Assembly (NCBI GenBank): GCA_902595715.1
Contig: CACJRI010000003.1
Location: forward strand, 5,583 to 69,582
From: an uncultured SAR86 cluster bacterium
GTDB lineage: Bacteria > Pseudomonadota > Gammaproteobacteria > Magnimaribacterales > AG-339-G14
Direction: 5' to 3'
DNA length: 64,000 bases
The notes beneath the pieces were generated by a model. That model saw only the letters and a program-made list of their open reading frames with translations, made no database searches and was not told where the DNA came from. The translations under genes were made by a program, and so were the position numbers. Of the stretch, positions 33,183 to 54,909 are shown piece by piece (the first letter of the stretch is position 1; each line of letters starts with the position of its first letter).

Positions 33183-34326
33183 GGACCTTGTTAAATTTAT
33201 AAGAGATTTATATCAGACTAATTCTTTTATCCCTCTTCATGAGCCACAGTTTTTAGGGAAGGAAAAAGAATATTTACTTGATGTTATAGACTCAACATTT
33301 GTTTCTAGTGTTGGTAAATCAGTAGATACATTTGAAGATAGGATAAGTAATTTTACCGGCATAAAATATGCAACAGCTACTGTAAATTGCACCTCTGCAA
33401 TTCATCTTTCGTTACTCTTGGCTGGAGTTAAGGAAGAAGACGAAGTTATAACTCAGTCTTTTAATTTTATTGCTGGCGCTAATGCTATTTCTTATTGCAG
33501 AGCAGATCCAGTATTCGTCGATATTGATAGAGACAGTCTTACAATGTCACCTATTAAATTAGAAAATTTTTTAAAAACAAATTATGAAATTAGAGAAGAT
33601 GGCAGATGTTGGAATAGAGTTACTAATAAAAGATTGGTGGCATGTTTGCCTATGAATTCTTATGGATTTCCTACTGATATAAATGGACTAAAAAAAATAT
33701 GTGATGATTTTCATATAAAGTTAATTGAAGATTCAGCTGAATCATTAGGAAGTTTTTGCAAGAGCAGGCACACAGGATCAGAATCAATCCTTTCTACCCT
33801 AAGTTTTAATGGAAACAAGATCATTACCACAGGGGGTGGAGGCATGATTCTTACTAACGATAAAAACTTACACAATAAAGCAAAGCATTTGTCTACTACC
33901 GCTAAATTGCCTCATAGGTGGGAATTCAATCATGATGAAATAGGATTTAATTTCAGAATGCCAAATCTCAATGCTGCACTAGGTTTGGCACAACTTGAGA
34001 TGATAGAAGATTTTATAATTAGCAAAAGAGATATTGCCTTAAAGTATCAAGAATGGGGAATAAAAAATAATTTGGTTTTTATAAAAGAACAAGAAGGTTC
34101 TAAATCTAATTATTGGTTAAATTGTCTAATGACAGAGGACCGTCATGAAAGAGACAGCTTATTAGAATACACTAATTCAAATAATGTCATGACTCGGCCC
34201 TCTTGGACTCCTTTGCATTTGTTAGGAATGTATGAGAAGAATTTTAAATCTGATTTAAAAGATACTGTTTGGGTTCACGAAAGACTAATTAATTTGCCCA
34301 GTTCGCCCATCTTAGAGCTCTTATGA
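33175..34326 (+). CDS. legC: DegT/DnrJ/EryC1-family PLP aminotransferase, LegC-like
   Basis: 383 aa. The DegT-family layout includes LSFNGNKIITTGGGGMILTND (PLP-lysine region) and GFNFRMPNLNAALGLAQL. Confidence 0.7.
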   Translation: MFEDLVKFIRDLYQTNSFIPLHEPQFLGKEKEYLLDVIDSTFVSSVGKSVDTFEDRISNFTGIKYATATVNCTSAIHLSLLLAGVKEEDEVITQSFNFIAGANAISYCRADPVFVDIDRDSLTMSPIKLENFLKTNYEIREDGRCWNRVTNKRLVACLPMNSYGFPTDINGLKKICDDFHIKLIEDSAESLGSFCKSRHTGSESILSTLSFNGNKIITTGGGGMILTNDKNLHNKAKHLSTTAKLPHRWEFNHDEIGFNFRMPNLNAALGLAQLEMIEDFIISKRDIALKYQEWGIKNNLVFIKEQEGSKSNYWLNCLMTEDRHERDSLLEYTNSNNVMTRPSWTPLHLLGMYEKNFKSDLKDTVWVHERLINLPSSPILELL

Positions 34327-35207
34327 AAATACTTTTAGCTGGTTCAGAGGGTTTCATTGGGAAAGCGTTTCAAGATAATTTATCTAAACATTTCGAAATA
34401 ATATGCACTGGGAGAAATTTTACAAAAGAAAATAAAACTCATATCAAGATAGATTTAGTTCTTGATGACTTAAATAAACTTCCTGACGATATTGATATTA
34501 TTGTCAATCTTGCTTCAAAACAACCCTCTCAAATTCAAGATTCTTGGGATGATTTTTACAAAGGTAATGTTATATCAACATTAAAATTATGGGATTATGC
34601 GAGGGAAATAGGTGCTAAAAAATTTATCTATATATCAAGCACTTCTTTGTTTAATCAGAGCTCGCCAAGTAATAAATTAAGTCATGATTCTATTGCCTGT
34701 CCCCTTAGTGAATACGGTCTAACTAAATATATTAGTGAGATACTTTTAAAAATGAGGTCAGAGGATGAAAATATCCAGACAATAATATTGAGATTCCCTT
34801 CAGTTTTTGGTGACGGCCATAAAGGTGGCTTAGTTAAAACTTTTTATGACTTAGCTGTAGAAAATAAAACTATAGATGTTTTTAATAATGGAAAAATTTA
34901 TAGAAATTTACTTTTTAAATCGGATGCTGTTTCAGCCATAAAGAAATGTATAGAAAATGAAACATTAGAAAATTTCGAAATTTTTATGATTGGAAGTAGC
35001 GACTCAATGCAGTCAAAAGAAATAGCAAAAAAAATTATAAAGTTGACTAAATCGAAATCGCGAATAAATCTTGTAAGCAAGCCGTCTCCTGTTGACTCAG
35101 ATATCTTTTTAGATTTAGAAAAATCCATAAAAAAATTAAACTTTAAACCATCTTCTATTGAGCATGGACTAAAATGTTTCCTAGAAAGCATGAATAATGA
35201 AATATAG
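34323..35207 (+). CDS. NAD-dependent sugar epimerase/reductase (extended SDR)
   Basis: 294 aa. Has MKILLAGSEGFIGKAF and the catalytic YGLTKYISE (YxxxK). The substrate is unknown. Confidence 0.7.
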   Translation: MKILLAGSEGFIGKAFQDNLSKHFEIICTGRNFTKENKTHIKIDLVLDDLNKLPDDIDIIVNLASKQPSQIQDSWDDFYKGNVISTLKLWDYAREIGAKKFIYISSTSLFNQSSPSNKLSHDSIACPLSEYGLTKYISEILLKMRSEDENIQTIILRFPSVFGDGHKGGLVKTFYDLAVENKTIDVFNNGKIYRNLLFKSDAVSAIKKCIENETLENFEIFMIGSSDSMQSKEIAKKIIKLTKSKSRINLVSKPSPVDSDIFLDLEKSIKKLNFKPSSIEHGLKCFLESMNNEI

Positions 35208-36366
35208 AACATCTTCACCTCATTTTCCTAAGGAAGATATAGAGGAGATTCTTCCTAAAATATCAGAAATCTTGGAGGGAAAAGGCCTTTTAAGTATGGG
35301 AGATAATGTTAAAGAATTTGAGTCCTCCTTCTCATCTTTCGTGGGCTCACGAGCAGCAGTAGCAACTAATTCTTGTTCTAGTGCTTTAGAAATTTCTTTA
35401 AATGTCCTTGGCGTTGGCTCTGGAGATGAGGTTATAGTTCCAACACAAACTTTTATTGCAACGGGATCTTCTGTAGTTAAAGTTGGAGCTAAGCCAATAT
35501 TCTGCGAAATAAATAAAAATTTTTTGATAGATTTTGAAGATTTAAAAAAGAAAATTAATAAACATACAAAAGCTGTAGTTATTGTTCATTTTGCTGGTTT
35601 AATCCACGAAGATATATTGAATATAAGAAAGTTTCTTAATGAAAAAGGCATTTTTTTAATAGAAGATGCTGCCCATGCAATTGGCTCTTCTTTGAATGGT
35701 ATTAAGGCTGGGAACTTTGGTGATTTGTCCTGTTTCTCTTTTTTTTCAACGAAAAATATGACAACTGGGGAAGGAGGCATGATCACTTCAAATAACATTG
35801 ATCTTTCAAAACTTTGTTCAAGTATTCGAAATAGAGGTTTAGACCTAGACTCATCTTCTGAGCAATTTATCAACATTGGTAGCAACAGCAGAATGACAGA
35901 GATTCAAGCTTTGCTTGGAATTTATCAACTAAAAAGAATTCAAGAATTCAATTTACATAGAAATAGGATTGCAGAAATTTACAATCAAGAACTTAATTCC
36001 TTTTTTGACTCAAACATTCTATCAAGACACACACAATCTAAAGATAATGTATCTTCTTACTGGAAGTATTGGATTTCACTTGAAGAAGGTTACTTCGAGG
36101 CTAGTGATAGAATTAAGATAAAAGAAGAGATGAATGCTTTATCTATTCCTGTAGATTGGGCCTACAGTCCTTTACTTCATTTACAACCAGTATTTAAAAA
36201 AATGTATGATATCAGCGAGGGTTATCTCCCTTTCTCTGAAGAAATGTCAAAAAGGCACATTTGCCTACCTATTCATGCATTGATCAGTGAAGAAGATGCA
36301 GTTTTCATAATAAAAAAATTTTCTGAAATAGTCTCAAAGTTAACGCAAGTTAATAACAAAAAATAA
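35197..36366 (+). CDS. second DegT/DnrJ/EryC1-family PLP aminotransferase
   Basis: 389 aa. Has FSFFSTKNMTTGEGGMITSN (PLP-lysine region), IEDAAHAIGS and SRMTEIQALLGIYQLKR. Confidence 0.8.
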   Translation: MKYRTSSPHFPKEDIEEILPKISEILEGKGLLSMGDNVKEFESSFSSFVGSRAAVATNSCSSALEISLNVLGVGSGDEVIVPTQTFIATGSSVVKVGAKPIFCEINKNFLIDFEDLKKKINKHTKAVVIVHFAGLIHEDILNIRKFLNEKGIFLIEDAAHAIGSSLNGIKAGNFGDLSCFSFFSTKNMTTGEGGMITSNNIDLSKLCSSIRNRGLDLDSSSEQFINIGSNSRMTEIQALLGIYQLKRIQEFNLHRNRIAEIYNQELNSFFDSNILSRHTQSKDNVSSYWKYWISLEEGYFEASDRIKIKEEMNALSIPVDWAYSPLLHLQPVFKKMYDISEGYLPFSEEMSKRHICLPIHALISEEDAVFIIKKFSEIVSKLTQVNNKK

Positions 36367-36369
36367 TTA

Positions 36370-37050
36370 ATGAAATTAAGTATTCATCAAAGTCAATATA
36401 TACCATGGCCAGCATATTTTAAGAAAATAGCTCTTTCAGATAAATTTGTTATTTTAGATGATGTTCAATTTCAAAAGAACGGTGTTCAGAATAGAAACAA
36501 ACTGAGAAATAAAAACGGGGAATTTTGGTTAACAATACCTGTTAAAGGTTCTTTGGGAGATTCCATAAAAGATAAAGAAATTGCTCACGATAAATGGAAA
36601 AAGAAGCATTTTCAGTCTATGTCTCAATCTTATTCAAAGTCACCATTTTGGGATTCCCTGAAAGATGAGATTGAAGCTTTATATTCTCTAGAAACTACTA
36701 AGTTAAATGATATAAATATCTTCTTTATAAAATTTATAATTTCTAAATTAGAAATTGATACTGAAATAATTATTTCTTCGAATGAAGATTTTAGCGGTAA
36801 AAAATCAGACTTAATCCTAAATATATGTAGTAACTTTAAAGCATCTAAGTATTTGAGCGGTACAGGAGCTAAAGATTATTTAGATATTGACAGTTTTAAG
36901 GAAAAAGGAATCATTGTAGAGTTTATGAAGTCGTTGCCAGCTATCTACACTCAAATACATGGTGATTTTATGCCCGGTCTTTCTATTATTGATATGATGA
37001 TGAACACTCCTTCTGAAGAGATAAGAAAATATCTATACGAAGAGAATTAA
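36370..37050 (+). CDS. WbqC-family protein (uncharacterised glycan-cluster family)
   Basis: 226 aa. The N-terminus is MKLSIHQSQYIPWPAYFKKIALSDKFVILDDVQFQKNGVQNRNKL, typical of WbqC-like proteins. Confidence 0.7.
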   Translation: MKLSIHQSQYIPWPAYFKKIALSDKFVILDDVQFQKNGVQNRNKLRNKNGEFWLTIPVKGSLGDSIKDKEIAHDKWKKKHFQSMSQSYSKSPFWDSLKDEIEALYSLETTKLNDINIFFIKFIISKLEIDTEIIISSNEDFSGKKSDLILNICSNFKASKYLSGTGAKDYLDIDSFKEKGIIVEFMKSLPAIYTQIHGDFMPGLSIIDMMMNTPSEEIRKYLYEEN

Positions 37051-37054
37051 GTCA

Positions 37055-38224
37055 ATGGCTAAGAAGATAAAGAAAATACTAGCTGTTACAGGAATAAGAT
37101 CTGAGTATGACATTTTATTTCCTGTAATAGATTCACTAAGAAAGCATAAATCTTTTCAGGTTCAACTGGTAGTTTGTGGGGCACACTTATCCGATTGGCA
37201 TGGAGATACTTTAAAAGATATTGAATCAGATAAGTTCGATGTCGTTGAAAAAATTGATTATCTTTTAATGACTAATAGAAAAACTCAAAGAGCAAAGGGA
37301 ATAGGCAATTTAATTTCTTCACTAACTCAAACGGTTGACCGTATCAAGCCAGATTTTATTCTGTACGTTGGTGATAGAGAAGAGAGTATCGCTTGTTCGA
37401 TAGTAGCAAACTATATGAATGTTTTAGCAGTTCATATAGGCGGGGGAGATTCGGTATACGGTAATGCAGATGATCCTATTAGATTTGCTTGTAGCGAGCT
37501 TGCACACGTTCATTTTACCACCTCACAACAGTATGCTGATAATCTCATAAAGATAGGTGAAGAACCAAGGCGGGTTTTTTTTAGTGGCAATCCGGCCTTA
37601 AAAAACATAAAAGACGTTCCTTCCATTTCAAAGAAAGAAATTTCAAAGAAGCTCGATTTTAATCTCAATAAATATGCTGTGATAATCAAACATCCCTTAT
37701 CCTCTTCTAAAGAAGAATCTTATTATCAGATGAAAACTACTTTAGAAGCAGTAGGTGAATTCACAAAGGAAAGAAATATTGAGGCTGTTGGCATATTTCC
37801 AAACACTGATCCTGGCTCCTATGACATATTAAGAGCAATAAAAGAAGAGGAAAGTAATTCAATGAAATTCTTTAAAAATCTCCCTAGAAATATTTTCGTA
37901 AACCTAATAAGGCATGCTTCATTGTTAATTGGAAATTCCAGTATGGGAATATTAGAAGCACCTTACTATAAATTACCAGTAATAAATGTAGGAGATCGCC
38001 AACTTGGAAGGTTAAATGCAGGAAATGTAAAGTTTGTAAATTATGATAAGAAAATTATCAAATCCGCTATGGAAGAGGCCATATTCAACTCAACTTATAT
38101 AGAAAAAATAAAGTCTTTAAAAAATCCATATGGCGGTGACGATGCTCACGAAAGAATAGTTGAAGTTCTTGAAAATCTAAACTTGGAAGACAAAACCTGG
38201 TATATAAAACAAAAGGTGTTTTAG
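37055..38224 (+). CDS. neuC: hydrolysing NDP-sugar 2-epimerase (NeuC/LegG type)
   Basis: 389 aa. Has ILAVTGIRSEYDILFPVI and YVGDREESIACSIVANYMNVLAVHIGGGD, and ends with NPYGGDDAHERIVEVL. Confidence 0.82.
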   Translation: MAKKIKKILAVTGIRSEYDILFPVIDSLRKHKSFQVQLVVCGAHLSDWHGDTLKDIESDKFDVVEKIDYLLMTNRKTQRAKGIGNLISSLTQTVDRIKPDFILYVGDREESIACSIVANYMNVLAVHIGGGDSVYGNADDPIRFACSELAHVHFTTSQQYADNLIKIGEEPRRVFFSGNPALKNIKDVPSISKKEISKKLDFNLNKYAVIIKHPLSSSKEESYYQMKTTLEAVGEFTKERNIEAVGIFPNTDPGSYDILRAIKEEESNSMKFFKNLPRNIFVNLIRHASLLIGNSSMGILEAPYYKLPVINVGDRQLGRLNAGNVKFVNYDKKIIKSAMEEAIFNSTYIEKIKSLKNPYGGDDAHERIVEVLENLNLEDKTWYIKQKVF

Positions 38225-38226
38225 TA

Positions 38227-38895
38227 ATGAAAAAAGTTATTGTCATTTCTCCACATCCAGACGATGAAACTTTAGGTTGTGGAGGGACACTTCTAAAGCA
38301 TATTTCAAATGGAGATCAAGTTTCTTGGGTCATCGTTACAGACATGAAAAAGATGCCAAATCTAAATAAAAACACATTAAACCAAAGAAATAAAGAAATT
38401 ATAGATGTCTCTAAAAGTTATGGTTTTCACAAAACATTCGAACTTGGGTTCCCCGCAACTCTCTTAGATACATTGCCAAAAAGAGATTTAATCTCATCAT
38501 TAGCTGATGTTATAAACGAGATAAAACCTGAAATTTTATACCTTCCTTATGAGAATGATGTTCATACAGACCATGAACAAGTTTTTAAAGCAGCTTCTGC
38601 ATTCACTAAATCTTTTCGTTTCCCTTTCATAAAAGACATTTATGTTTATCACACTTTATCTGAGACAGATTTCAATCTAGATCCAAAAAAATCTAGCTTC
38701 AAACCAAATTACTTTGTTGATATCACCGAACACTTTGATGAGAAGTTAGCCATTATGAGAATCTATGAGTCTGAATTAGGCAATCATCCTTTTCCTAGGT
38801 CTGTTGAAGCGATTAAGTCTCACGCAACCTTAATGGGAAGTATTTCGAATACTAGTTATGCTGAGGGCTTTGTCATCATTAAGCAAATAAGATGA
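38227..38895 (+). CDS. PIG-L/LmbE-family N-deacetylase
   Basis: 222 aa. Has the zinc-site motif VISPHPDDETLGCGGTL and a downstream HTDHEQV. Confidence 0.8.
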   Translation: MKKVIVISPHPDDETLGCGGTLLKHISNGDQVSWVIVTDMKKMPNLNKNTLNQRNKEIIDVSKSYGFHKTFELGFPATLLDTLPKRDLISSLADVINEIKPEILYLPYENDVHTDHEQVFKAASAFTKSFRFPFIKDIYVYHTLSETDFNLDPKKSSFKPNYFVDITEHFDEKLAIMRIYESELGNHPFPRSVEAIKSHATLMGSISNTSYAEGFVIIKQIR

Positions 38896-39968
38896 GCACA
38901 ATTGTTATTGCAGAGGCCGGCGTTAATCATAATGGCGACTTGCAGAAAGCTTTCCAGCTTGTTGATGCAGCATCAGAAGCCGGTGCTGATATTGTAAAAT
39001 TCCAAATTTTTAAAGCTGAAAATTTAGCAACCACCTCGGCAGAAAAGGCAAATTACCAAAAGAAAACCTCAAATTCATCTGAGTCACAATTTTCTATGCT
39101 TAAAAAGCTTGAACTTGATAATGAATCTTATTTTAAGTTACAAGAATATTGTCATCAGAAAGAAATTGATTTTCTATTATCTGCCTTCGATTTTGATAGT
39201 TTGAAATTTTTATTAGACGAACTTAGATTAAAAATTCTTAAAATACCTTCAGGAGACATTACTAATGCTCCATTGATTTTATCTCATGCCGTCTCAGGCA
39301 GGGATATCATTCTTTCAACAGGCATGTCTAATTTAAATGAAATAGAAACAGCATTATCAGTTATTTCATATGGATATTTAAACCAAACCATCAATTTAAA
39401 ACCTTCAATTGAAGATTTTAAAAAAGCCTATAATTCCTCTGAAGGAAAAGATTTATTAGAAGAAAAAGTTATTCTTTTGCATTGTACAACTGAATATCCA
39501 GCGCCTCTAAAAGATATCAACCTTGATGCCATGAATACCATAAAAGATCATTTTAAATTAAAAGTGGGGTATTCAGATCATAGTGATGGGATTTTAGTTC
39601 CTATCGCCGCAGCTGCTTTAGGAGCAAAAATTATAGAAAAACATATAACGTTAAACAAAGATGATATAGGTCCGGATCATAGGGCATCTTTGGAGCCAGA
39701 TCAGTTCAAAAGAATGATTTCAAGTATTAGAAAAGTAGAGTTACTAAAAGGCGATGGCATAAAAAAACCAAGAGAATCTGAGTCATCAAATATTATGATT
39801 GCTAGGAAGAGTATTTTTGCTAAAAAAATAATCAAGGCGGGGGAAATTTTCTCTGAAGAAAATATTGCTTTAAAAAGACCTTCTAAAGGGCTCGACCCGA
39901 TAATGTATTGGGAAGTTTTAGGTCAGGAGGCTACTAGAGATTACGAAGTAGACGAGGCAATTGAATGA
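38892..39968 (+). CDS. neuB: nonulosonic acid synthase (NeuB/LegI type)
   Basis: 358 aa. Has IAEAGVNHNGDL...GADIVKFQ...KIPSGDITN...LHCTTEYPAP...GYSDHS, followed by a C-terminal SAF domain. Confidence 0.88.
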   Translation: MSTIVIAEAGVNHNGDLQKAFQLVDAASEAGADIVKFQIFKAENLATTSAEKANYQKKTSNSSESQFSMLKKLELDNESYFKLQEYCHQKEIDFLLSAFDFDSLKFLLDELRLKILKIPSGDITNAPLILSHAVSGRDIILSTGMSNLNEIETALSVISYGYLNQTINLKPSIEDFKKAYNSSEGKDLLEEKVILLHCTTEYPAPLKDINLDAMNTIKDHFKLKVGYSDHSDGILVPIAAAALGAKIIEKHITLNKDDIGPDHRASLEPDQFKRMISSIRKVELLKGDGIKKPRESESSNIMIARKSIFAKKIIKAGEIFSEENIALKRPSKGLDPIMYWEVLGQEATRDYEVDEAIE

Positions 39969-40885
39969 AAATAGGTTATTTTGCAGATGGTCCTTGGTCC
40001 CATAAAGCTTTAGAGAGAATAGTTTCTGATAGGAGATTAGAGATATCTTTTATTGTTCCAAGATATGATTCTCAAGATTCTGTTCTCAAGGAATGGGCAA
40101 AAAAACTAGGAGTTGATTTTATTCCTATGAAAAATGTGAATTCAAAGGACTCTATAAATAAATTAAAAAGCTATAAAGCAGACATATTTGTTTCTATGTC
40201 ATTTGATCAGATTATAAAGAAGGAAGTTATACATTTACCGGAAAAAGGTTTTATTAATTGTCACGCAGGAGCCTTGCCATTTTATAGAGGCAGAAACGTA
40301 CTTAATTGGGTATTAATAAATGATGAAAAAGAATTCGGAGTAACGGTTCATTACATTGATGAAGGGATTGATACAGGCGATATAATTTTACAAAACAAGA
40401 GTTTGATAACTGACGATGATTCTTATAAAACTTTATTAGAAAGAGCTATCGACCTTTGTGATAAGACCCTCTACGAAGCTATTGTAAAAATCTTAAATGG
40501 TGAGAACCAAAGAATTAAACAAAAGGAGATAGATCCTGTGGGAAGTTATTTTAGAATCAGAAAAGAAGGTGATGAATGGATCAACTGGGAATGGACATCA
40601 AGAAAAATATTTAATTTCATCAGAGCAATTACAGATCCAGGGCCTTGTGCACAAACCATGTTTAAAGAGAATCTTATCAAGATAAGAAACTCTAAAGAAA
40701 TTCCTAATTCTCCCAAATACGTTTGCGTTCCAGGGGAAATAGTGGGCAAAACAGACGATTCTTTAATTTTAAAGACTGGAGACAGCACGCTGTCAATAAA
40801 TTCTTATGATAGTTTAGATAAAAAGAATGATATGGCGCTCAGAGCTCTAAGAATTGGCAATCGCTTATATAAACCAAATCATTAA
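39965..40885 (+). CDS. formyltransferase (Fmt/ArnA-N-like) for a sugar amino group
   Basis: 306 aa. The Formyl_trans_N core is FINCHAGALPFYRGRNVLNWVLINDEKEFGVTVHYIDEGIDTGDII (N/H/D catalytic residues). A C-terminal Fmt-C-like domain follows. Confidence 0.8.
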   Translation: MKIGYFADGPWSHKALERIVSDRRLEISFIVPRYDSQDSVLKEWAKKLGVDFIPMKNVNSKDSINKLKSYKADIFVSMSFDQIIKKEVIHLPEKGFINCHAGALPFYRGRNVLNWVLINDEKEFGVTVHYIDEGIDTGDIILQNKSLITDDDSYKTLLERAIDLCDKTLYEAIVKILNGENQRIKQKEIDPVGSYFRIRKEGDEWINWEWTSRKIFNFIRAITDPGPCAQTMFKENLIKIRNSKEIPNSPKYVCVPGEIVGKTDDSLILKTGDSTLSINSYDSLDKKNDMALRALRIGNRLYKPNH

Positions 40886-40915: not shown

Positions 40916-41974
40916 TTGACTAAAATTAATTGGATAGCATCTACCTTGCTCAAAGATGAGTCTATGGAGAAAGCAATAAAAAATCTTAATCTTCAATCAA
41001 CAAGGATTGTTCTTGTAATTGATAAAAATCAAAAATTATTAGGAACGATCACAGATGGAGATATCAGAAGAGCTATACTCGAAAACAAGTCAATGGATAC
41101 TCCTTTATGTGACTTCATGAACCCTAATCCCACCACAGCCTCTGAAAATGAAGATATGGATTCAATATTAAAATTAATGCAAAAAAATGATCTTATCCAG
41201 ATTCCTATTGTCGACTCCAAGTCTAAAATTGTTGGCCTTGAAACTCTTCATCACTTAATCGAAAATGAGACAAAAAATAATCCCGTATTTTTAATGGCGG
41301 GAGGGTTTGGCAAGCGGTTAGCACCTTTAACCGATGAGATGCCTAAACCTCTTCTTAAAATTGGCTCTAAACCCATATTAGAAATCATAATAGATAACTT
41401 CATAGATCAAGGATTTAATAATTTTTATATCTCTACCCATTTTCTTGCAGAAAAGATAGTTGATTTCTTTGGAGATGGAACTCTTAAAGGAGTTTCTATT
41501 GAATACATACATGAAAAAAAACCTATGGGAACTGCTGGATCATTAGGACTATTGCCTCAGGAGAAGATAGACTCGCCAATAATTATGATGAATGGAGATT
41601 TATTATCTAAAGTCAATTTTTCAGATCTCTTAAGTTATCATAATGATAAACCCGGAGAAATCACCATGTGTATCTCTGAATATGAATTTCAAGTGCCTTA
41701 TGGCGTAATTAAAACCGATAAAGAAAGGCTCAAAGGAATTGATGAAAAACCTTCTCAGAAATTTTTTATAAATGCTGGTATTTATGTTGTTGAGCCATCT
41801 GTCTTAAAAAAGGTTAATAACAATGAATATATCGACATGCCAACTTTGTTAGATGAAATGATAAAAGATGGTATTGAAATAAATGTTTTTCCTATTCATG
41901 AGTACTGGCTCGATGTTGGCAAAATCGATGATTTTAATATGGCTAAAAAGGAAATAAACAAAGATGACCAATAA
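40916..41974 (+). CDS. CBS-domain sugar-1-phosphate nucleotidyltransferase (PtmE-like)
   Basis: TTG start, 352 aa. An N-terminal CBS pair (VIDKNQKLLGTITDGDIRRA; IPIVDSKSKIVGL) is followed by the nucleotidyltransferase motif LMAGGFGKRLAPLTDEMPKPLLKIG. Confidence 0.8.
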   Translation: MTKINWIASTLLKDESMEKAIKNLNLQSTRIVLVIDKNQKLLGTITDGDIRRAILENKSMDTPLCDFMNPNPTTASENEDMDSILKLMQKNDLIQIPIVDSKSKIVGLETLHHLIENETKNNPVFLMAGGFGKRLAPLTDEMPKPLLKIGSKPILEIIIDNFIDQGFNNFYISTHFLAEKIVDFFGDGTLKGVSIEYIHEKKPMGTAGSLGLLPQEKIDSPIIMMNGDLLSKVNFSDLLSYHNDKPGEITMCISEYEFQVPYGVIKTDKERLKGIDEKPSQKFFINAGIYVVEPSVLKKVNNNEYIDMPTLLDEMIKDGIEINVFPIHEYWLDVGKIDDFNMAKKEINKDDQ

Positions 41975-42965
41975 TGAAAAATACTTGGTTGTTGGAGCGG
42001 GGAACATATCTAAAAAACATATCGATAATATAAAGAGACTAAAAAGAAACAGCTTGGTATTCAATTTGTCTTCTTCAGGTCGGAATATTGATCCTCAATC
42101 TAATAATGCAGATTATTTATTAAGAAACTTTCAAGAAGCTCATGAACATAAATTTAGTGCAGTCATTATTGCTTCGCCAGCTAGTTTTCACATAGAACAT
42201 GCATTGTTTTTTTCTTCTTTAAACATACCCTTGCTAATTGAAAAGCCTTTGTCTGACAATTTAAAAAAATATGAAGAAGCAAGTAATACTCTTTTGGATT
42301 TAAATGAAAAAATAAAAATTGCTTACAATCTTAGATATCTCAATTCGATGATTTTTTTTAAGAATTTTTTACGTGAAAATTTATTGGGAAAAATATATTC
42401 GGTTCAATCAGAAGTAGGGCAAAACCTAATTAATTGGAGACCAAAAAAAAATTATAAACATACTGTTTCTTCAAACAAAAAACTTGGCGGAGGCGCTCTT
42501 TTAGAGTTAAGTCATGAATTGGATTACCTAACTTGGATTTTTGGCGACATTCAAAGTGTTTTCTGCAAACTTTCTAATACCAACCATTTCGATATTGATG
42601 TTGAAGATAATGTTGAATCTATTCTTCAAACAAAAAGTGGCTTATGCATCAACTTACATATGGATTTTTTACAAAATAAAACTATAAGAAAATGTAAGGT
42701 TATAGGAGAAAAGGGCACTTTAGATTTTGATCTTTTAGAGAATAAAATTATTCACTATCAAGAAAATGAAAAAATAGAGATTATCTACAACGAGAATGTT
42801 TTTGATCAGAATCAGCCTTATATTGACATGCTTCAAGATTTCTTAAATCCAGATACAGAGAAACTAAATAATCTTGCAAGCCTAGATGAAGCCAAATATG
42901 TTTTAGCAATCATAGAGGCTATGAGAGTTTCATCTAAAGAAAATTCTCTAATCAAGGTAGATTGA
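41964..42965 (+). CDS. Gfo/Idh/MocA-family oxidoreductase (PtmF-like)
   Basis: 333 aa. Has the N-terminal Rossmann motif YLVVGAGNISKKHIDNI and EKPL (LLIEKPLSDN). Confidence 0.75.
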   Translation: MTNNEKYLVVGAGNISKKHIDNIKRLKRNSLVFNLSSSGRNIDPQSNNADYLLRNFQEAHEHKFSAVIIASPASFHIEHALFFSSLNIPLLIEKPLSDNLKKYEEASNTLLDLNEKIKIAYNLRYLNSMIFFKNFLRENLLGKIYSVQSEVGQNLINWRPKKNYKHTVSSNKKLGGGALLELSHELDYLTWIFGDIQSVFCKLSNTNHFDIDVEDNVESILQTKSGLCINLHMDFLQNKTIRKCKVIGEKGTLDFDLLENKIIHYQENEKIEIIYNENVFDQNQPYIDMLQDFLNPDTEKLNNLASLDEAKYVLAIIEAMRVSSKENSLIKVD

Positions 42966-42968
42966 ATA

Positions 42969-43661
42969 ATGAAAACATTTGCATTTATATTTGCTAGGGG
43001 GGGTTCTAAAGGGCTTCCAAAAAAAAATATTTTAAATCTAGGAGGGCTTCCTCTTATTGCTCACTCCATTCTTTCAGCTAAAAATAATCAAATGATTGAT
43101 GATGTTTTTGTTTCAACAGACTCAGATGAAATTGCAGAAGTTTCTAACAAATTTGAAGCTAAAATTATAAAGAGACCAAAAGAACTTGCACAAGATGATT
43201 CTTCAGAATGGTTATCTTGGAATCACGCAATCAATTATGTTCATGATCAGGGGTATGTTTTTAACAGATTTATAAGCTTGCCTGCAACTGCACCCCTTAG
43301 AGCTGATGAGGATATTAATAAATGTCTCTTAGCTTTTAAAGGAAATGTTGATGTAGTTATAACTGTAACTCCAGCAAATCGTAATCCTAGTTTTAATATG
43401 ATTAAAAGAGATGCTAAAGGCATGAGTAATTTAATTTTAAAATCTGACATCGCAAGAAGACAAGATGCTCCTTTAGTATATGACATGACTACTGTGGCAT
43501 ATGTGACTACACCAGAATATATTTTAAGTAAAAAAAATCTTTTTGAAGGAAATACTTACTCGGTTATCATTCCTAAAGATCGAGCTATAGACATAGATGA
43601 CAGAGTAGACTTTATTTTAGCAGAGAGGTTATTCGAAATAAGAAATGATTTTACAAAATAA
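42969..43661 (+). CDS. neuA: CMP-nonulosonic acid synthetase (acylneuraminate cytidylyltransferase, NeuA/LegF type)
   Basis: 230 aa. FAFIFARGGSKGLPKKNILNLGGLPLIAHSI is the CTP-transferase-3 N-terminus. Also has ATAPLR. Confidence 0.88.
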   Translation: MKTFAFIFARGGSKGLPKKNILNLGGLPLIAHSILSAKNNQMIDDVFVSTDSDEIAEVSNKFEAKIIKRPKELAQDDSSEWLSWNHAINYVHDQGYVFNRFISLPATAPLRADEDINKCLLAFKGNVDVVITVTPANRNPSFNMIKRDAKGMSNLILKSDIARRQDAPLVYDMTTVAYVTTPEYILSKKNLFEGNTYSVIIPKDRAIDIDDRVDFILAERLFEIRNDFTK

Positions 43662-44409
43662 TACTGTATTAGTTGTAGGAGCCAATGGCAGAATTGGATC
43701 AGTTATCTCAAAAAGATTGTTAGAGGAAGGTGCTAATGTAATAGCTGCAGATATAACTCTACAAAATCTCAAAAATAATGAATTTGGTGTATACAAAGAT
43801 CAATTTCTCAAAATTGAGATGGACATCACTAATAAAGAATCCATAGAAAAAGCATTTGAATTTGCTTTATCCAAGTTTGGTAAAATAGACTCTGCTATCA
43901 ATACTTCATATCCAAAAGGTAGTGAGTATGGAAAACATTTCTTTGATGTTTCTTATGATTCTTTTACTGAAAATCTATCTCTTCATGTAGGAGGATTTTT
44001 CTTATTTATGCAAATTTGTGCTAAATACTCGTTATCCTCAAACCAGAAGTTTTCCTTGCTAAATTTCTCTTCAATATATGGCAATATAGCGCCAAGATTT
44101 GAAATTTATGAAAATACTGACATGACTACTCCCGTTGAGTACGCAGCTATGAAATCGGCAATTCAACATTTATCTCAGTACGTGAGCGCTTTTACAAAGA
44201 ACTCAAAATTCAGGGTAAATTGTATTAGTCCTGGAGGAATATCAGATAATCAAGATGCTAAATTCTTAGCCAAATATAAAAAATTTTCTAGGGAAAAAGG
44301 CATGTTAGATGTTGAAGATCTTTTGGGTACCGTCTTATATTTGATTTCAGAATCCTCTGAATATGTATGTGGTCAAAATATTATTGTTGATGATGGTTTT
44401 GTGGTTTAA
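43645..44409 (+). CDS. short-chain dehydrogenase/reductase (PtmA-like)
   Basis: 254 aa. Has VLVVGANGRIGSVISKRL and the catalytic YAAMKSAIQHL (YxxxK). Confidence 0.75.
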   Translation: MILQNNTVLVVGANGRIGSVISKRLLEEGANVIAADITLQNLKNNEFGVYKDQFLKIEMDITNKESIEKAFEFALSKFGKIDSAINTSYPKGSEYGKHFFDVSYDSFTENLSLHVGGFFLFMQICAKYSLSSNQKFSLLNFSSIYGNIAPRFEIYENTDMTTPVEYAAMKSAIQHLSQYVSAFTKNSKFRVNCISPGGISDNQDAKFLAKYKKFSREKGMLDVEDLLGTVLYLISESSEYVCGQNIIVDDGFVV

Positions 44410-44429: not shown

Positions 44430-45068
44430 ATGTCATCAAAACAAAGAGTAGTCATAATTGACAGAAAGAATGCAAACATAAATTCCCTGAAGAATGCAAT
44501 TCAACACGTAAGCGATTTTCATTTATCTGTTTCAAGTGATATGAAAGAAATTCAAAAAGCTGATTTTTTAGTTTTAGCTGGTGTGGGCGCTTTTGGTGAT
44601 GGCATGGCTGATCTTATAGAAAAAGATCTGGTTGATGGGCTTATAAATCAAGCGCTTATTAAAAAAAAGCCTTTTCTTGGCATATGTTTAGGTATGCAGA
44701 TGCTTTTTTCTGAATCAGAAGAAAAAGGGATTAATAAAGGCCTAAATTTAATTGAAGGCAAAGTTAAATATCTTGATCTTGATCCTTCTTATAGAATTCC
44801 TCATGTTGGATGGAATAACATTGAATACGAAGAAGATAAAAAAATATTCAATGGTTTAGGGCCTGATAAGAACTTTTATTTTGTGCATAGCCTTTCAGCT
44901 CAATGTGATGAGAAAAATATAATTGCTAAAGTTGACTATGATAAGAAAATAACCGCAGCAGTCCAAAAAGATAATATTTTAGGCTTTCAATTTCATCCAG
45001 AAAAAAGTCAAGGGAATGGGATGATTCTTTTAAGAAACTTTTTATCAGGTAGATACTACGATGCTTAA
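44430..45068 (+). CDS. hisH: HisH-like glutamine amidotransferase subunit dedicated to glycan synthesis (WbuY type)
   Basis: 212 aa. The class-I GATase triad is present: nucleophile in PFLGICLGMQML and H/E in FQFHPEKS. Its context is next to a HisF-like gene and WbpG-like amidotransferases, not other his genes. Confidence 0.82.
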   Translation: MSSKQRVVIIDRKNANINSLKNAIQHVSDFHLSVSSDMKEIQKADFLVLAGVGAFGDGMADLIEKDLVDGLINQALIKKKPFLGICLGMQMLFSESEEKGINKGLNLIEGKVKYLDLDPSYRIPHVGWNNIEYEEDKKIFNGLGPDKNFYFVHSLSAQCDEKNIIAKVDYDKKITAAVQKDNILGFQFHPEKSQGNGMILLRNFLSGRYYDA

Positions 45069-45870
45069 ACCAAGACTTATACCTTGCATAATAACTAGAG
45101 GTGACATGGTAGTACAAAGTATAAACTTTAAAAGATATCTTCCAATTGGAAATATAAAAACAGCAATAGAATTTTTTGTAAAATGGGATGTTGATGAAAT
45201 AGTAATATTAGATATTACAGCTTCCAAAGAAAACCGACATCCAAATACTGAATTAATTGAATGGGCCTCATCTGAGTGTTTTGTCCCTCTTACTGTTGGC
45301 GGAGGGATTAAAACCTCCCAAGATATTAGAGATTTATTAAATTCTGGAGCTGATAAAGTTTGCATAAATTCAGCTGCTAGGAATGATATAGCTCTTGTGG
45401 AAGAAGCAAGCAACATTTTCGGTGCACAATGCATTACTGTCTCAGTTGATGTTATTTTTAAAGATGGGGAATACAAAATTTATACATACGAAAACAATGA
45501 TATTTTAGATATCTCTCTCATTTCATACATTAAAGGTCTAGAACAAAAAGGAGCTGGAGAAATTTTTTTAAATTCCGTTAATAGAGATGGTAGTAAAGAG
45601 GGCTATGATATAAAACTCATAAAATCCGTAACGGATAATGTAAACATACCAGTAATTGCATGTGGCGGGGTAGGAAAAAATAGCCATTTTTCAGAGGCAA
45701 TAATTTATGCAAACTGCTCTGCAGTTTCAGCATCAAATATTTTTCAACATACAGAACATAGTACAATTTCTGCTAAAGCCATGTTGCTAAAAGACGGAGT
45801 AGAAGTGAGGCTTAATGGAGACGTTAAATACAGTAATTTTGAATTTGATCAAATGGGAAGACCTTTCTAA
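45061..45870 (+). CDS. hisF: HisF-like cyclase/ammonia-channel subunit dedicated to glycan synthesis (WbuZ type)
   Basis: 269 aa. TIM-barrel HisF signatures RLIPCIITRGDMVVQS, ILDITAS and TVGGGIK...ACGGVG are present. Confidence 0.82.
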   Translation: MLKPRLIPCIITRGDMVVQSINFKRYLPIGNIKTAIEFFVKWDVDEIVILDITASKENRHPNTELIEWASSECFVPLTVGGGIKTSQDIRDLLNSGADKVCINSAARNDIALVEEASNIFGAQCITVSVDVIFKDGEYKIYTYENNDILDISLISYIKGLEQKGAGEIFLNSVNRDGSKEGYDIKLIKSVTDNVNIPVIACGGVGKNSHFSEAIIYANCSAVSASNIFQHTEHSTISAKAMLLKDGVEVRLNGDVKYSNFEFDQMGRPF

Positions 45871-54891: not shown

Positions 54892-54909
54892 TACATTAAT
54901 GTATTAAAC

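What the first reader, a model, noticed from the sequence alone, without database searches (positions are those of the whole stretch)
38227..40885. Formyltransferase and PIG-L deacetylase inside the nonulosonate block, with no hexapeptide N-acetyltransferase in the window
The canonical Leg pathway needs an N-acetyltransferase of the left-handed beta-helix type (LegH/PglD-like) after the aminotransferase step. I find no hexapeptide-repeat protein anywhere in the 35 kb of the locus visible here.

Instead, neuB is bracketed by two other genes, each overlapping it by 4 nt. One is a PIG-L/LmbE deacetylase (VISPHPDDETLGCGGTL). The other is an Fmt-like formyltransferase (INCHAGALPFYRGRN...HYIDEGIDTGDII).

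This predicts an N-formylated nonulosonic acid, and possibly a deacetylated and re-acylated one. It would be an unusual derivative if confirmed.
Basis: inference. Interest (0 to 1): 0.55.

Follow-up and report, generated by a model that had tools for sequence, protein, structure and literature searches.

The report
Formyltransferase replaces acetyltransferase in legionaminic-acid cluster
In this marine Flavobacteriales sugar-coat locus, a formyltransferase sits exactly where the usual acetyltransferase of the legionaminic-acid pathway sits in matching clusters, and the neighbouring deacetylase belongs to a separate editing module, so the cell probably makes an N-formylated, re-tailored sialic-acid-like sugar.

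Summary
PIG-L deacetylase (38227-38895), NeuB/LegI (38892-39968) and a two-domain Fmt/ArnA-like formyltransferase (39965-40885) overlap by ATGA. No hexapeptide (LbH) protein is detectable in any frame of the 64 kb window, or in about 2.8 kb beyond it.

The arrangement is common, not a one-off. The formyltransferase ("FMT-A") is a tightly conserved family, with 263 matches in species-representative genomes across many phyla. It nearly always lies beside NeuB or PtmE in LegB-LegC-NeuC-NeuB clusters, and 55 of 83 loci examined have no LbH within 10 kb.

In clusters syntenic with the window, the FMT-A slot holds either FMT-A or a PglD/LegH-type LbH, never both. I read this as non-orthologous displacement. 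FMT-A most likely formylates the LegC product, giving a 7-N-formyl legionaminic acid.

PIG-L is not FMT-A's partner. It travels with WbqC (26 of 27 WbqC loci), or elsewhere with a second formyltransferase type ("FMT-B"). The WbqC model's only PDB fold match is BshC. This suggests BshB/BshC-like logic: remove the N5 acetyl, then re-acylate.

Precedents exist: PseJ (Pse5Ac7Fo), Halorubrum 5-N-formyl-Leg, and Kuenenia formyl/free-amine NulOs. None of these steps has been tested biochemically here, and which nitrogen is formylated remains inferred.

The parts
32205..33182 (+). [quoted passage not shown]
   Evidence: TIGR04180 at 500.9 bits, above its cut-off of 475.
33175..34326 (+). LegC, the 4-aminotransferase that creates the amine later acylated at N7
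   Evidence: TIGR04181 at 482.7 bits, above its cut-off of 420.
34323..35207 (+). SDR2, a short-chain epimerase/reductase-like protein and first gene of the accessory block
   Evidence: PF01370 and RmlD_sub_bind. 38% identical to its Marinomonas counterpart in the same position. Recurs as SDR2-DegT2-WbqC-NeuC-PIGL.
35197..36366 (+). DegT2, a second DegT-family PLP enzyme and part of the accessory block
   Evidence: PF01041 at 1.7e-100. Below the PseC and LegC cut-offs. Present in 20 of 27 WbqC loci.
36370..37050 (+). WbqC-family protein, a candidate ATP-dependent amide ligase and partner of PIG-L
   Evidence: PF08889 at 5.8e-71. AF2 model with pLDDT 96.2. The only PDB fold match is BshC 4wbd: E 1.3e-3, probability 1.0, TMq 0.48. 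PIG-L is present in 26 of 27 WbqC loci.
37055..38224 (+). NeuC/LegG, hydrolysing NDP-sugar 2-epimerase
   Evidence: TIGR03568 at 371.4 bits, above its cut-off of 235.9.
38227..38895 (+). PIG-L/LmbE-family N-deacetylase
   Evidence: PF02585 at 90.3 bits. Nearest named families are BshB1/BshB2, below their cut-offs. PDB relatives: TT1542, diacetylchitobiose deacetylase and BshB1. H10-x-D12-D13 and H113-x-D115-H116 are conserved in 33 orthologues.
38892..39968 (+). NeuB/LegI, nonulosonate synthase
   Evidence: TIGR03569 at 466.8 bits, above its cut-off of 399.65. PseI scores only 246.8 against a cut-off of 340.
39965..40885 (+). FMT-A, a two-domain Fmt/ArnA-like formyltransferase occupying the LegH slot
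   Evidence: PF00551 plus PF02911. N98, H100 and D136 are invariant in the family. PDB relatives: Fmt 1e-26, ArnA 1.7e-25, WbkC 4.7e-20, PseJ 1e-13. Slot swap with the PglD_N LbH.
40916..41974 (+). PtmE-like CBS + nucleotidyltransferase that makes the NDP-hexosamine precursor
   Evidence: CBS plus NTP_transferase. Adjacent to FMT-A, or to the LbH, in nearly all related loci.
41964..42965 (+). PtmF-like GFO/IDH/MocA oxidoreductase
   Evidence: PF01408, PF02894 and PF22725.
42969..43661 (+). NeuA/LegF, CMP-nonulosonate synthetase
   Evidence: PF02348. Most similar to PseF, below its cut-off.
43645..44409 (+). PtmA-like SDR
   Evidence: PRK09186 at 318.9 bits, above its cut-off. FlagModPtmA at 231 bits, below its cut-off.
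44430..48259 (+). HisH, WbuZ and two tandem WbuX amidotransferases (amide-to-amidine tailoring set)
   Evidence: TIGR01855; TIGR03572 (just below cut-off); TIGR03573 twice, at 373 and 397 bits against a cut-off of 203. The same four-gene set recurs in L022, L062, L108, L109, L127 and L143.

Best explanation
The window carries a legionaminic-acid (Leg) type nonulosonate pathway inside a Wzx/Wzy polysaccharide locus of a marine Flavobacteriales bacterium.

**Core pathway (gene identities shown).** PtmE, PtmF and PtmA supply the NDP-hexosamine. LegB dehydrates it and LegC aminates C4. NeuC, NeuB and NeuA then build and activate the nine-carbon acid.

**Step 1 (inferred from synteny).** The Fmt/ArnA-like enzyme FMT-A takes the place of the missing LegH acetyltransferase. 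It uses N10-formyl-tetrahydrofolate to formylate the 4-amino group of the NDP-sugar. That group becomes N7 of Leg, giving Leg5Ac7Fo-type intermediates.

**Step 2 (inferred from co-occurrence, family chemistry and a weak fold match).**
- PIG-L is part of an independent, recurrent accessory block, SDR2-DegT2-WbqC-NeuC-PIG-L.
- It removes the only N-acetyl left, the one inherited from GlcNAc (N2 of the hexose, N5 of Leg).
- WbqC then re-acylates the freed amine.
- This parallels BshB/BshC and MshB/MshC, where a deacetylase is followed by an ATP-dependent ligase.

**Step 3 (inferred).** HisH, WbuZ and the two WbuX proteins may convert one or more amides to amidines.

**Predicted product.** A CMP-activated Leg with a 7-N-formyl group and a non-acetyl group at N5.
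For: **Gene identities.** LegB, LegC, NeuC and NeuB all score above their curated NCBIfam cut-offs. FMT-A has both formyltransferase domains. Its Asn98, His100 and Asp136 are invariant in 20 diverse family members and align to the ArnA/Fmt catalytic region.

**LbH is absent.** None in six frames of the window or the next ~2.8 kb, with positive controls found.

**FMT-A is a Leg-cluster enzyme.**
- 263 matches in species-representative genomes.
- In 83 loci it co-occurs with PtmE (80), NeuB (78), NeuC (72) and LegC (63). Fifty-five loci have no LbH within 10 kb.

**Slot swap.**
- L143 reads DegT2-WbqC-NeuC-PIGL-NeuB-[LbH]-PtmE-PtmF-NeuA-PtmA, which is the window's order with a PglD_N LbH in place of FMT-A.
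- L095, L102, L109 and L113 read LegC-[LbH]-NeuB. L108 reads LegC-[FMT-A]-NeuB.
- Marinomonas, Brevibacillus and Alteromonas loci have NeuB-[LbH]-PtmE.
- Across these WbqC-type clusters the count is 9 LbH, 4 FMT-A and none with both.
- The same alternation appears in PIG-L-centred loci: L172 has FMT-A, L173 and L174 have LbH.
- Flanking genes are orthologous. Marinomonas proteins are 47-61% identical for LegC, DegT2, WbqC, NeuC, PIG-L, NeuB and PtmE.

**PIG-L.**
- The metal and catalytic motifs are conserved.
- It is found in 26 of 27 WbqC loci.
- Elsewhere it overlaps a second formyltransferase type, FMT-B, by 4 nt.
- It is retained in LbH-less FMT-A clusters, so its acetyl substrate must be the GlcNAc-derived one.

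**WbqC.** The AF2 model has pLDDT 96 and its sole significant PDB fold match is BshC.

**Precedents.**
- PseJ makes Pse5Ac7Fo (PMC11040635; PDB 6ci2).
- Kuenenia CMP-NulOs carry one formyl group and one free amine, and its Leg-like cluster holds a deacetylase and a formyltransferase.
Against: - There is no biochemical or glycan-structure evidence for this organism or for any FMT-A protein.
- Twelve of 83 FMT-A loci carry a PglD-like LbH directly beside FMT-A. That would be redundant if both acylate N7.
- FMT-A is almost always beside PtmE. In C. jejuni, PtmE yields GDP-GlcN with a free 2-amine, which is a possible alternative substrate.
- The one structurally defined N-formyl Leg (Halorubrum) is formylated at N5, not N7.
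- The WbqC-BshC similarity is modest (TMq 0.48, E 1.3e-3) and has no sequence support. To my knowledge, BshC's own ligase activity is not well reconstituted.
- The model gives SDR2 and DegT2 no role.
- A LegH gene could lie elsewhere in the genome, as it does in C. jejuni.
Confidence: 0.58

Rival explanations
1. FMT-A formylates the 2-amino group, either on GDP-GlcN made by PtmE or after PIG-L deacetylation. The product would be a 5-N-formyl Leg as in Halorubrum, with N7 left free, also formylated, or acylated by something else.
For: - FMT-A is adjacent to PtmE in most loci.
- Twelve loci have both a PglD-like LbH and FMT-A side by side. That reads naturally as 7-N-acetyl plus 5-N-formyl.
- Halorubrum PV6 carries 5-N-formyl-Leg, and its cluster has an LbH (NeuD-like) and a formyltransferase.
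Against: - The PglD_N LbH and FMT-A alternate in the same slot of otherwise orthologous clusters, directly after LegC or NeuB.
- In LbH-less clusters this model leaves the 4-amine unacylated and leaves PIG-L with no acetyl to remove. Yet PIG-L is retained there (window, L091, L108, L172).
- All characterised sugar N-formyltransferases I know of act on 3- or 4-amines made by DegT-type transaminases: ArnA, WbkC, VioF, PseJ and WlaRD (for the PDB relatives; their regiochemistry is from my own knowledge).
- The Halorubrum enzyme begins MRVVFI, like FMT-B and classical Fmt. It does not begin with FMT-A's invariant MKIGYFADGPWSH.
Confidence: 0.22
2. PIG-L simply leaves a free amine on the finished nonulosonate, as reported for Kuenenia. 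WbqC, DegT2 and SDR2 do something unrelated, such as an epimer change or adding a further amino group.
For: - Kuenenia CMP-NulOs have one free amine and one formyl group, and its cluster has a deacetylase and a formyltransferase.
- The WbqC-BshC link is weak.
- An oxidoreductase plus a DegT enzyme is the classic way to turn a hydroxyl into an amine. An FAD-oxidoreductase + DegT + PIG-L arrangement is seen in Alteromonas.
Against: - The near-obligate WbqC-PIG-L co-occurrence (26 of 27) argues that the two act on the same intermediate.
- In other clusters PIG-L is coupled to a re-acylating enzyme, FMT-B, with a 4-nt overlap. This suggests that deacetylation is normally followed by re-acylation.
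Confidence: 0.2
3. A LegH-type acetyltransferase lies elsewhere in the genome and makes ordinary Leg5Ac7Ac. The formyltransferase acts on a different sugar of the repeat unit, such as the DegT2 product.
For: - In C. jejuni, legH lies outside the leg cluster (stated).
- The window has a second DegT and other sugar genes.
- The rest of the genome could not be searched.
Against: - FMT-A is found in 83 of 83 loci inside Leg gene sets, and only 12 of them have a DegT2-like gene.
- The DegT2-WbqC-PIG-L block usually occurs with an LbH and without FMT-A; FMT-A is present in only 2 of 27.
- The slot swap makes a separate LegH unnecessary.
Confidence: 0.07
4. The gene is the housekeeping methionyl-tRNA formyltransferase and lies in the locus by chance.
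For: Sources annotate the family as methionyl-tRNA formyltransferase. The best PDB hit is an Fmt.
Against: - It scores 133 bits against TIGR00460, below the 201.5 cut-off.
- It has a family-specific invariant N-terminus (GYFADGxWSH) and an HAGALPxYRGRN motif.
- It lies in a conserved position in nonulosonate clusters in many phyla.
Confidence: 0.01

Closest known systems
PseJ, the formyltransferase of the pseudaminic-acid pathway (PDB 6ci2/6ci4; cited in PMC11040635 as completing the Pse5Ac7Fo pathway)
   Same: It is a folate-type formyltransferase encoded inside a nonulosonate cluster. It is credited with the N7-formyl group in place of the usual N-acetyltransferase step. This is the closest functional analogue.
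   Different: PseJ chains are 192-217 residues and match only FMT-A's N-terminal domain, at E about 1e-13. FMT-A is a 306-aa, two-domain Fmt/ArnA-like protein. FMT-A sits in Leg-type clusters (LegB/LegC/NeuC/NeuB), not Pse-type clusters. FMT-A has not been characterised.
LegH / PglD-type LbH N-acetyltransferases (canonical Leg pathway in C. jejuni)
   Same: They occupy the same genomic slot, after LegC or between NeuB and PtmE, in orthologous clusters. The inferred substrate is the same NDP-4-amino sugar.
   Different: The fold and the cofactor are unrelated: a left-handed beta-helix using acetyl-CoA, against a formyltransferase fold using N10-formyl-THF. The product would carry formyl, not acetyl.
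ArnA N-terminal domain and Fmt
   Same: These are the best sequence relatives in the PDB (E 1e-25 to 1e-26). They share the two-domain architecture and the Asn-His-Asp catalytic region. ArnA also formylates a 4-amino NDP-sugar.
   Different: FMT-A scores below every curated cut-off: fmt 133 against 201.5, ArnA 137 against 777. It has a distinct invariant N-terminus. It lacks the ArnA dehydrogenase domain.
Halorubrum sp. PV6 leg cluster (PMC6137143)
   Same: A Leg cluster with an in-cluster predicted formyltransferase, and an N-formylated Leg demonstrated on glycoproteins.
   Different: The formyl group is at N5 there. That cluster also has a NeuD-like LbH. Its formyltransferase starts MRVVFI, which is FMT-B/classical-like and not FMT-A-like.
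Ca. Kuenenia stuttgartiensis Leg-like cluster (SugarBase preprint, 10.64898/2026.04.20.719630)
   Same: A deacetylase and a formyltransferase lie between leg genes and neuB. CMP-nonulosonates with one N-formyl group and one free amine were detected by MS.
   Different: No WbqC, DegT2 or amidotransferase set is reported there. I could not retrieve the sequences to say whether its formyltransferase is FMT-A or FMT-B type.
BshB/BshC (bacillithiol) and MshB/MshC (mycothiol) deacetylase-ligase pairs
   Same: Each pairs a PIG-L/LmbE deacetylase acting on a 2-acetamido sugar with an enzyme that acylates the freed amine. The window's PIG-L is most similar to BshB1/BshB2 among named families. The WbqC model's only PDB fold match is BshC.
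   Different: WbqC is 226 aa against 540 for BshC. There is no detectable sequence similarity. The context is a nonulosonate cluster, not thiol biosynthesis. The acyl donor is unknown.

Membership tests
Formyl_trans (Fmt/ArnA-type folate-dependent formyltransferases) | N-terminal Formyl_trans_N domain above the Pfam gathering score | tested here: met
   PF00551 at 90.8 bits against 26.1.
Formyl_trans (Fmt/ArnA-type folate-dependent formyltransferases) | C-terminal Formyl_trans_C domain | tested here: met
   PF02911 at 46.1 bits against 21.1.
Formyl_trans (Fmt/ArnA-type folate-dependent formyltransferases) | Catalytic Asn-His...Asp residues | tested here: met
   N98, H100 and D136 are invariant in 20 family members. 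They align to the ArnA and Fmt NxH and D motifs. That these are the catalytic residues is from established knowledge of ArnA and Fmt.
Formyl_trans (Fmt/ArnA-type folate-dependent formyltransferases) | Uses N10-formyl-THF to formylate an amine | not testable with these tools
   Needs an enzyme assay.
Methionyl-tRNA formyltransferase (TIGR00460 equivalog) | Score above the curated cut-off | tested here: not met
   133.4 bits against 201.5.
PseJ-type nonulosonate N7-formyltransferase | Close sequence relationship to PseJ and a single-domain architecture | tested here: not met
   Only E about 1e-13 over residues 71-199. PseJ chains are 192-217 aa, FMT-A is 306 aa with a C-terminal domain.
PseJ-type nonulosonate N7-formyltransferase | Encoded in a nonulosonate cluster in place of the N-acetyltransferase | tested here: met
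   Slot swap with the PglD_N LbH in syntenic Leg clusters. Here the pathway is Leg, not Pse.
LegH/PglD LbH N-acetyltransferase (is one present in the window?) | Hexapeptide-repeat / PglD_N protein encoded in the locus | tested here: not met
   No Pfam Hexapep hit. Six-frame LbH profile: best E 0.044, with controls at 5e-53 and 4.6e-36. None in the ~2.8 kb downstream.
Legionaminic-acid (Leg) biosynthesis cluster | LegB and LegC equivalogs | tested here: met
   TIGR04180 at 500.9 against 475. TIGR04181 at 482.7 against 420.
Legionaminic-acid (Leg) biosynthesis cluster | Hydrolysing 2-epimerase, NeuB-type (not PseI-type) synthase, and CMP-synthetase | tested here: met
   TIGR03568 at 371 against 236. 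TIGR03569 at 467 against 400, with PseI at 247 against 340. CTP_transf_3.
Legionaminic-acid (Leg) biosynthesis cluster | Product has the D-glycero-D-galacto configuration | not testable with these tools
   Needs NMR of the released sugar. SDR2 and DegT2 could alter the stereochemistry.
PIG-L/LmbE N-deacetylase | PIG-L domain above the gathering score | tested here: met
   PF02585 at 90.3 against 28.2.
PIG-L/LmbE N-deacetylase | Metal-binding and catalytic HPDD and HxDH motifs | tested here: met
   H10, D12, D13 and H113, D115, H116 are conserved in at least 97% of 33 orthologues. The role of these motifs is from established knowledge of MshB and BshB.
BshB1 (bacillithiol deacetylase equivalog) | Score above the curated cut-off | tested here: not met
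   80.4 bits against 182.5. It resembles BshB but is not a member.
BshC-like ligase (for WbqC) | Shared fold with BshC | tested here: inconclusive
   Foldseek E 1.3e-3, probability 1.0, TMq 0.48 over 219 columns. No sequence match with a WbqC profile.
BshC-like ligase (for WbqC) | ATP-dependent acylation of a deacetylated amino sugar | not testable with these tools
   Needs an enzyme assay.

The most novel reading that the evidence does not exclude
Leg-type nonulosonate clusters may be built from two interchangeable acylation modules that have not been described as such.

- **N7 slot.** It is filled either by a LegH-type acetyltransferase or by the uncharacterised FMT-A formyltransferase family.
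- **N5 editing module.** A dedicated PIG-L deacetylase strips the GlcNAc-derived acetyl. A partner then installs a new group: FMT-B, or WbqC acting as a BshC-like ATP-dependent ligase, possibly helped by SDR2 and DegT2.

On this reading the window would make a Leg derivative not yet seen in any glycan: 7-N-formyl with an aminoacyl or otherwise unusual N5 group, possibly also amidinated by the two WbuX paralogues.
Probability: 0.3. Interest if true: 0.65.

Novelty: new variant of a known kind. Interest (0 to 1): 0.48.

Why it matters
Nonulosonic acids sit at the tips of bacterial surface glycans and flagellins. Their N-acyl groups set charge, antigenicity and phage or lectin recognition.

If the reading is right, many Leg clusters across many phyla make N-formyl rather than di-N-acetyl legionaminic acids. 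These include Leptospira, cyanobacteria, marine Gammaproteobacteria, Bacteroidota and gut Lachnospiraceae. The enzyme family responsible is currently annotated as methionyl-tRNA formyltransferase.

This would correct sugar predictions made from genomes. It would also supply enzymes for making defined Leg derivatives.

The PIG-L/WbqC and PIG-L/FMT-B pairs would explain how the N5 acetyl inherited from GlcNAc gets replaced. How non-acetyl groups reach N5 of these sugars is largely unknown enzymatically.

Tried and rejected
- **Hexapeptide regex.** A simple six-frame regular expression for hexapeptide repeats gave only chance three-repeat matches. I replaced it with a profile search that had positive controls.
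- **FMT-A clusters without an aminotransferase.** I looked for such clusters, since they would have argued for a 2-amine substrate. The candidates (L023, L030, L041, L045, L064, L065, L076) were variable Lachnospiraceae flagellin islands. Their unlabelled ORFs were a chemoreceptor, glycosyltransferases, a class-III aminotransferase and so on. This was not informative.
- **Halorubrum formyltransferase sequence.** The paper's supplement holds only primers, which give just the first six residues.
- **Kuenenia homologue.** It could not be retrieved.
- **Literature searches.**
  - 'WbqC' returned nothing functional.
  - Formyl-Leg abbreviations returned mostly DNA-damage papers.
  - The acinetaminic-acid paper did not describe PIG-L or WbqC-like genes, so I did not pursue the epimer-conversion idea for the accessory block.
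  - The E. coli O-antigen review did not mention the O121 N-acetylglycyl sugar. The link between WbqC and glycyl transfer in E. coli O121 therefore rests on my memory only.
- **WbqC profile against PDB sequences.** No hits.
- **ORF 48293-49714.** No Pfam or NCBIfam match, even at E 0.01.

Full report
**Observation**

The three genes are as described.
- ORF 38227-38895 is a PIG-L/LmbE deacetylase (PF02585, 90.3 bits).
- ORF 38892-39968 is a NeuB-type synthase.
- ORF 39965-40885 has both formyltransferase domains, PF00551 and PF02911.
- The quoted motifs are present. Both junctions read ATGA, a 4-nt overlap.

**Locus anatomy**

Housekeeping genes end at about 28.9 kb: aro/phe/tyr genes, cmk, rpsA, pyrF, ggt, uvrC and pgsA. 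A Wzx/Wzy-type polysaccharide locus then runs to the window end and beyond. In order it encodes:
- Wzz, a UDP-sugar dehydrogenase and a TviC-like epimerase;
- LegB and LegC, both above their NCBIfam cut-offs;
- an SDR (SDR2), a second DegT enzyme (DegT2) and a WbqC-family protein;
- NeuC, PIG-L, NeuB and the formyltransferase;
- a PtmE-like CBS-nucleotidyltransferase, a PtmF-like oxidoreductase, NeuA and a PtmA-like SDR;
- HisH, WbuZ and two WbuX amidotransferases;
- a 473-aa ORF with no family match, and an AT3-SGNH O-acyltransferase;
- an epimerase and Wzx;
- a DUF4956-CotH-VTC trio;
- a GT2 fused to a CDP-alcohol phosphatidyltransferase;
- Wzy, an AsnB-type amidotransferase and a GT4.

NeuB scores as NeuB/LegI, not PseI. 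With LegB and LegC this marks a Leg-type pathway.

The source is a marine Flavobacteriales bacterium. A MAG contig is 96% identical for the formyltransferase, and identical proteins occur on Tara Oceans contigs.

**Absence of an LbH acetyltransferase**

- No ORF of 80 aa or more between 15.7 and 63.1 kb hits any hexapeptide family.
- I built an LbH profile from 36 LbH proteins found in related loci. I searched all stop-to-stop segments of 40 aa or more in six frames of the whole window and of the downstream contig L084.
- The best window hit was E=0.044, on an epimerase. Control LbH proteins scored 5e-53 and 4.6e-36, and a GlmU scored 2.6e-20.
- Downstream to about 66.8 kb there are only a GT4, a GAPDH-like protein, a DHQS/Fe-ADH-like protein and an SDR.
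- The claim therefore holds for what can be seen. The rest of the genome could not be checked.

**The formyltransferase family (FMT-A)**

- The protein has thousands of homologues. The best 120 are all at least 53% identical over the full length.
- A scan of one genome per species found 263 matches, in Bacteroidota, Alpha- and Gammaproteobacteria, cyanobacteria, Bacillota, Leptospira/Turneriella, Campylobacterota, Verrucomicrobiota, Acidobacteriota and others.
- The family is very conserved, with 63% mean column identity. It has an invariant N-terminal GYFADGxWSH and an HAGALPxYRGRNxLNW motif. The Asn98, His100 and Asp136 residues correspond to the ArnA/Fmt catalytic residues.
- Its best solved relatives are Fmt (1e-26), ArnA (1.7e-25) and WbkC (4.7e-20). 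PseJ, the pseudaminic-acid formyltransferase, matches only at about 1e-13 over the N-domain.
- It is below the curated cut-offs for fmt and ArnA, so it is a separate subfamily.

**Context of FMT-A**

I labelled ORFs in 83 loci with the window's proteins.
- FMT-A co-occurs with PtmE in 80 loci, NeuB in 78, NeuC in 72, NeuA in 69 and LegC in 63.
- An LbH lies within 10 kb in only 28 loci, and directly adjacent in 12.
- PIG-L is present in 10 loci and WbqC in 2.
- Typical gene orders are LegC-NeuC-NeuB-FMT-PtmE-NeuA, LegB-LegC-FMT-NeuB-NeuC-PtmE-NeuA and LegB-LegC-PtmE-FMT-NeuB-NeuC-NeuA.
- LegH-less, FMT-A-containing Leg clusters are therefore the rule for this family, not an oddity of this window.

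**Slot swap**

The WbqC gene led to clusters that are syntenic with the window but carry a PglD_N-type LbH where the window has FMT-A.
- Marinomonas sp. S3726 reads dehydratase-LegC-SDR-DegT2-WbqC-NeuC-PIG-L-NeuB-LbH-PtmE-NeuA. Most of its proteins are 47-61% identical to the window's.
- Brevibacillus choshinensis and an Alteromonas flagellin island have the same NeuB-LbH-PtmE arrangement.
- Metagenome locus L143 repeats the window's order gene for gene: DegT2-WbqC-NeuC-PIGL-NeuB-[LbH]-PtmE-PtmF-NeuA-PtmA, with HisH-WbuZ-WbuX-WbuX alongside.
- L095, L102, L109 and L113 read LegC-[LbH]-NeuB, and L108 reads LegC-[FMT-A]-NeuB. Pfam confirms PglD_N + Hexapep, or Formyl_trans_N + C, for those slot proteins.
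- In this set, 9 clusters have the LbH, 4 have FMT-A, and none has both.
- Three PIG-L-centred loci chosen without reference to either gene show the same alternation: L172 has FMT-A, L173 and L174 have LbH.

This is the pattern of non-orthologous gene displacement. It is the main reason I assign FMT-A to the LegH step, acylation of the 4-amine made by LegC, which becomes N7 of Leg.

**PIG-L and its partners**

- The PIG-L protein has the HPDD and HxDH motifs, which are conserved in 33 orthologues.
- Its nearest named families are BshB1 and BshB2, both below cut-off. Its solved relatives are TT1542, diacetylchitobiose deacetylase and BshB1.
- It belongs to a large, tight family of about 222-aa proteins.
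- It is not tied to FMT-A. It is tied to WbqC: of 27 WbqC loci with at least 4 kb on both sides, 26 have PIG-L, 22 have NeuB, 20 have a DegT2-like gene, and only 2 have FMT-A. The block is often arranged as SDR2-DegT2-WbqC-NeuC-PIGL.
- In other Leg clusters PIG-L overlaps by 4 nt a second, classical-looking formyltransferase of about 295 aa, starting MKIxFIG, which I call FMT-B.
- PIG-L therefore looks like the first half of an editing pair: deacetylate, then add something else.
- In LbH-less clusters such as the window, the only N-acetyl available is the one inherited from GlcNAc (hexose N2, which becomes Leg N5). Known PIG-L family members remove exactly this kind of group.

**WbqC**

- An AlphaFold model built on 32 homologues is confident (pLDDT 96.2, pTM 0.92).
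- Its only notable PDB fold match is BshC, the putative cysteine ligase that follows BshB in bacillithiol synthesis (E 1.3e-3, probability 1.0, TMq 0.48). Weak matches to other nucleotide-binding alpha/beta proteins, such as a universal stress protein and pantothenate synthetase, follow.
- There is no sequence-level PDB match.
- From memory, not checked here: the family is named after a gene in the E. coli O121 cluster, whose O-antigen carries an N-acetylglycyl group on an amino sugar. That would fit an aminoacyl-ligase role.
- I treat 'WbqC re-acylates the amine freed by PIG-L' as a reasoned hypothesis, not a result.

**Proposed mechanism**

*Shown:* gene identities, the absence of an LbH, the conservation and context of the families, and the slot swap.

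*Inferred:*
1. PtmE, PtmF and PtmA (with a housekeeping acetyltransferase, as in C. jejuni) supply NDP-GlcNAc.
2. LegB and LegC make the 4-amino sugar.
3. FMT-A formylates it.
4. NeuC and NeuB give a Leg5Ac7Fo-type acid.
5. PIG-L removes the N5 acetyl at some stage, and WbqC installs another group. SDR2 and DegT2 may help, but their role is unknown.
6. The HisH/WbuZ/WbuX set may amidinate.
7. NeuA activates the product.

**Points against, and rivals**

- Twelve FMT-A loci also have a PglD-like LbH next to FMT-A. This is redundant under my model and natural if FMT-A formylates the 2-amine.
- FMT-A's constant neighbour PtmE makes GDP-GlcN in C. jejuni.
- Halorubrum carries 5-N-formyl-Leg. However, the Halorubrum enzyme begins MRVVFI like FMT-B. 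The N5 model also leaves PIG-L without a substrate in LbH-less clusters.
- I give the N5 rival about 0.2.
- A free-amine end product, as in Kuenenia, is a live alternative for the PIG-L half.
- A remote LegH, with FMT-A serving the DegT2 product, is unlikely given the co-occurrence numbers.
- A housekeeping Fmt is excluded for practical purposes.

**Comparison with what is known**

- A formyltransferase substituting for the acetyltransferase in a nonulosonate pathway is established for Pse (PseJ; PMC11040635).
- A predicted formyltransferase sits in the Halorubrum Leg cluster (PMC6137143).
- A deacetylase-formyltransferase pair in a Leg-like cluster has been linked by MS to formyl/free-amine CMP-NulOs in Kuenenia (preprint).

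The finding therefore falls within a known kind. I did not find the following described in the searchable literature:
- the widespread FMT-A family as the LegH alternative;
- the modular picture of an N7 slot plus a PIG-L-based N5 editing module;
- the WbqC-PIG-L pairing.

**Verdict**

The feature is real. It is a new variant of a known kind and of moderate interest. The mechanism is supported by comparative genomics only.

Noticed in passing
window 36370-37050 and 38227-38895; loci L087-L171: WbqC and PIG-L form a near-obligate pair in nonulosonate clusters: 26 of 27 WbqC loci with enough flank have PIG-L. They often lie in a conserved SDR2-DegT2-WbqC-NeuC-PIGL block. The confident AF2 model of WbqC matches only BshC in the PDB, which suggests a BshB/BshC-like deacetylase-ligase logic.
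   Followed up: partly
L044, L046, L050, L056, L059, L067, L079, L172, L173, L174: A second formyltransferase type (FMT-B) overlaps PIG-L by 4 nt in many Leg clusters. It is about 295 aa, starts with the classical MKIxFIG and is Fmt/ArnA-like. It occurs with either FMT-A or a PglD-type LbH elsewhere in the cluster. It probably converts N5-acetyl to N5-formyl.
   Followed up: partly
window 44430-48259: HisH, WbuZ and two tandem WbuX (N-acetyl sugar amidotransferase) paralogues. The same four-gene set with two WbuX copies recurs in L022, L062, L108, L109, L127 and L143. Why two are needed is unexplained; one per amide, or a heteromer, are possibilities.
   Followed up: no
window 48293-49714: A 473-aa ORF with no Pfam or NCBIfam match, even at E 0.01. 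Homologues sit in other nonulosonate loci (L004, L014, L091), usually near the end of the sugar genes. It is a candidate nonulosonate transferase or polymerase.
   Followed up: no
window 54199-58228: A DUF4956 protein, an 866-aa CotH kinase-like protein with a NosD-like beta-helix region, and a VTC-domain protein lie together inside the polysaccharide locus. Their function here is unknown.
   Followed up: no
window 58231-59943: A GT2 glycosyltransferase fused to a CDP-alcohol phosphatidyltransferase domain. This suggests a phosphodiester-linked substituent, such as a polyol phosphate, in the polymer.
   Followed up: no
L084 6234-9970 (window-equivalent ~63.1-66.8 kb): The locus continues past the window with a GT4, a GAPDH-like dehydrogenase, a DHQS/Fe-ADH-like protein and an SDR. 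The cluster end is not visible.
   Followed up: partly
L003 (Limnospira fusiformis) and L090 (Pontivivens insulae): PIG-L also occurs with an ATP-grasp ligase and a methyltransferase next to NeuB. This may be a third kind of re-acylating partner.
   Followed up: no
L001/L002 (Leptospira santarosai), L014, L032: A third, distant Formyl_trans_N-like protein of about 265 aa, starting MKITIFTSNQPRH, lies a few genes downstream of FMT-A. In Leptospira it follows a Polysacc_deac_1 deacetylase.
   Followed up: no
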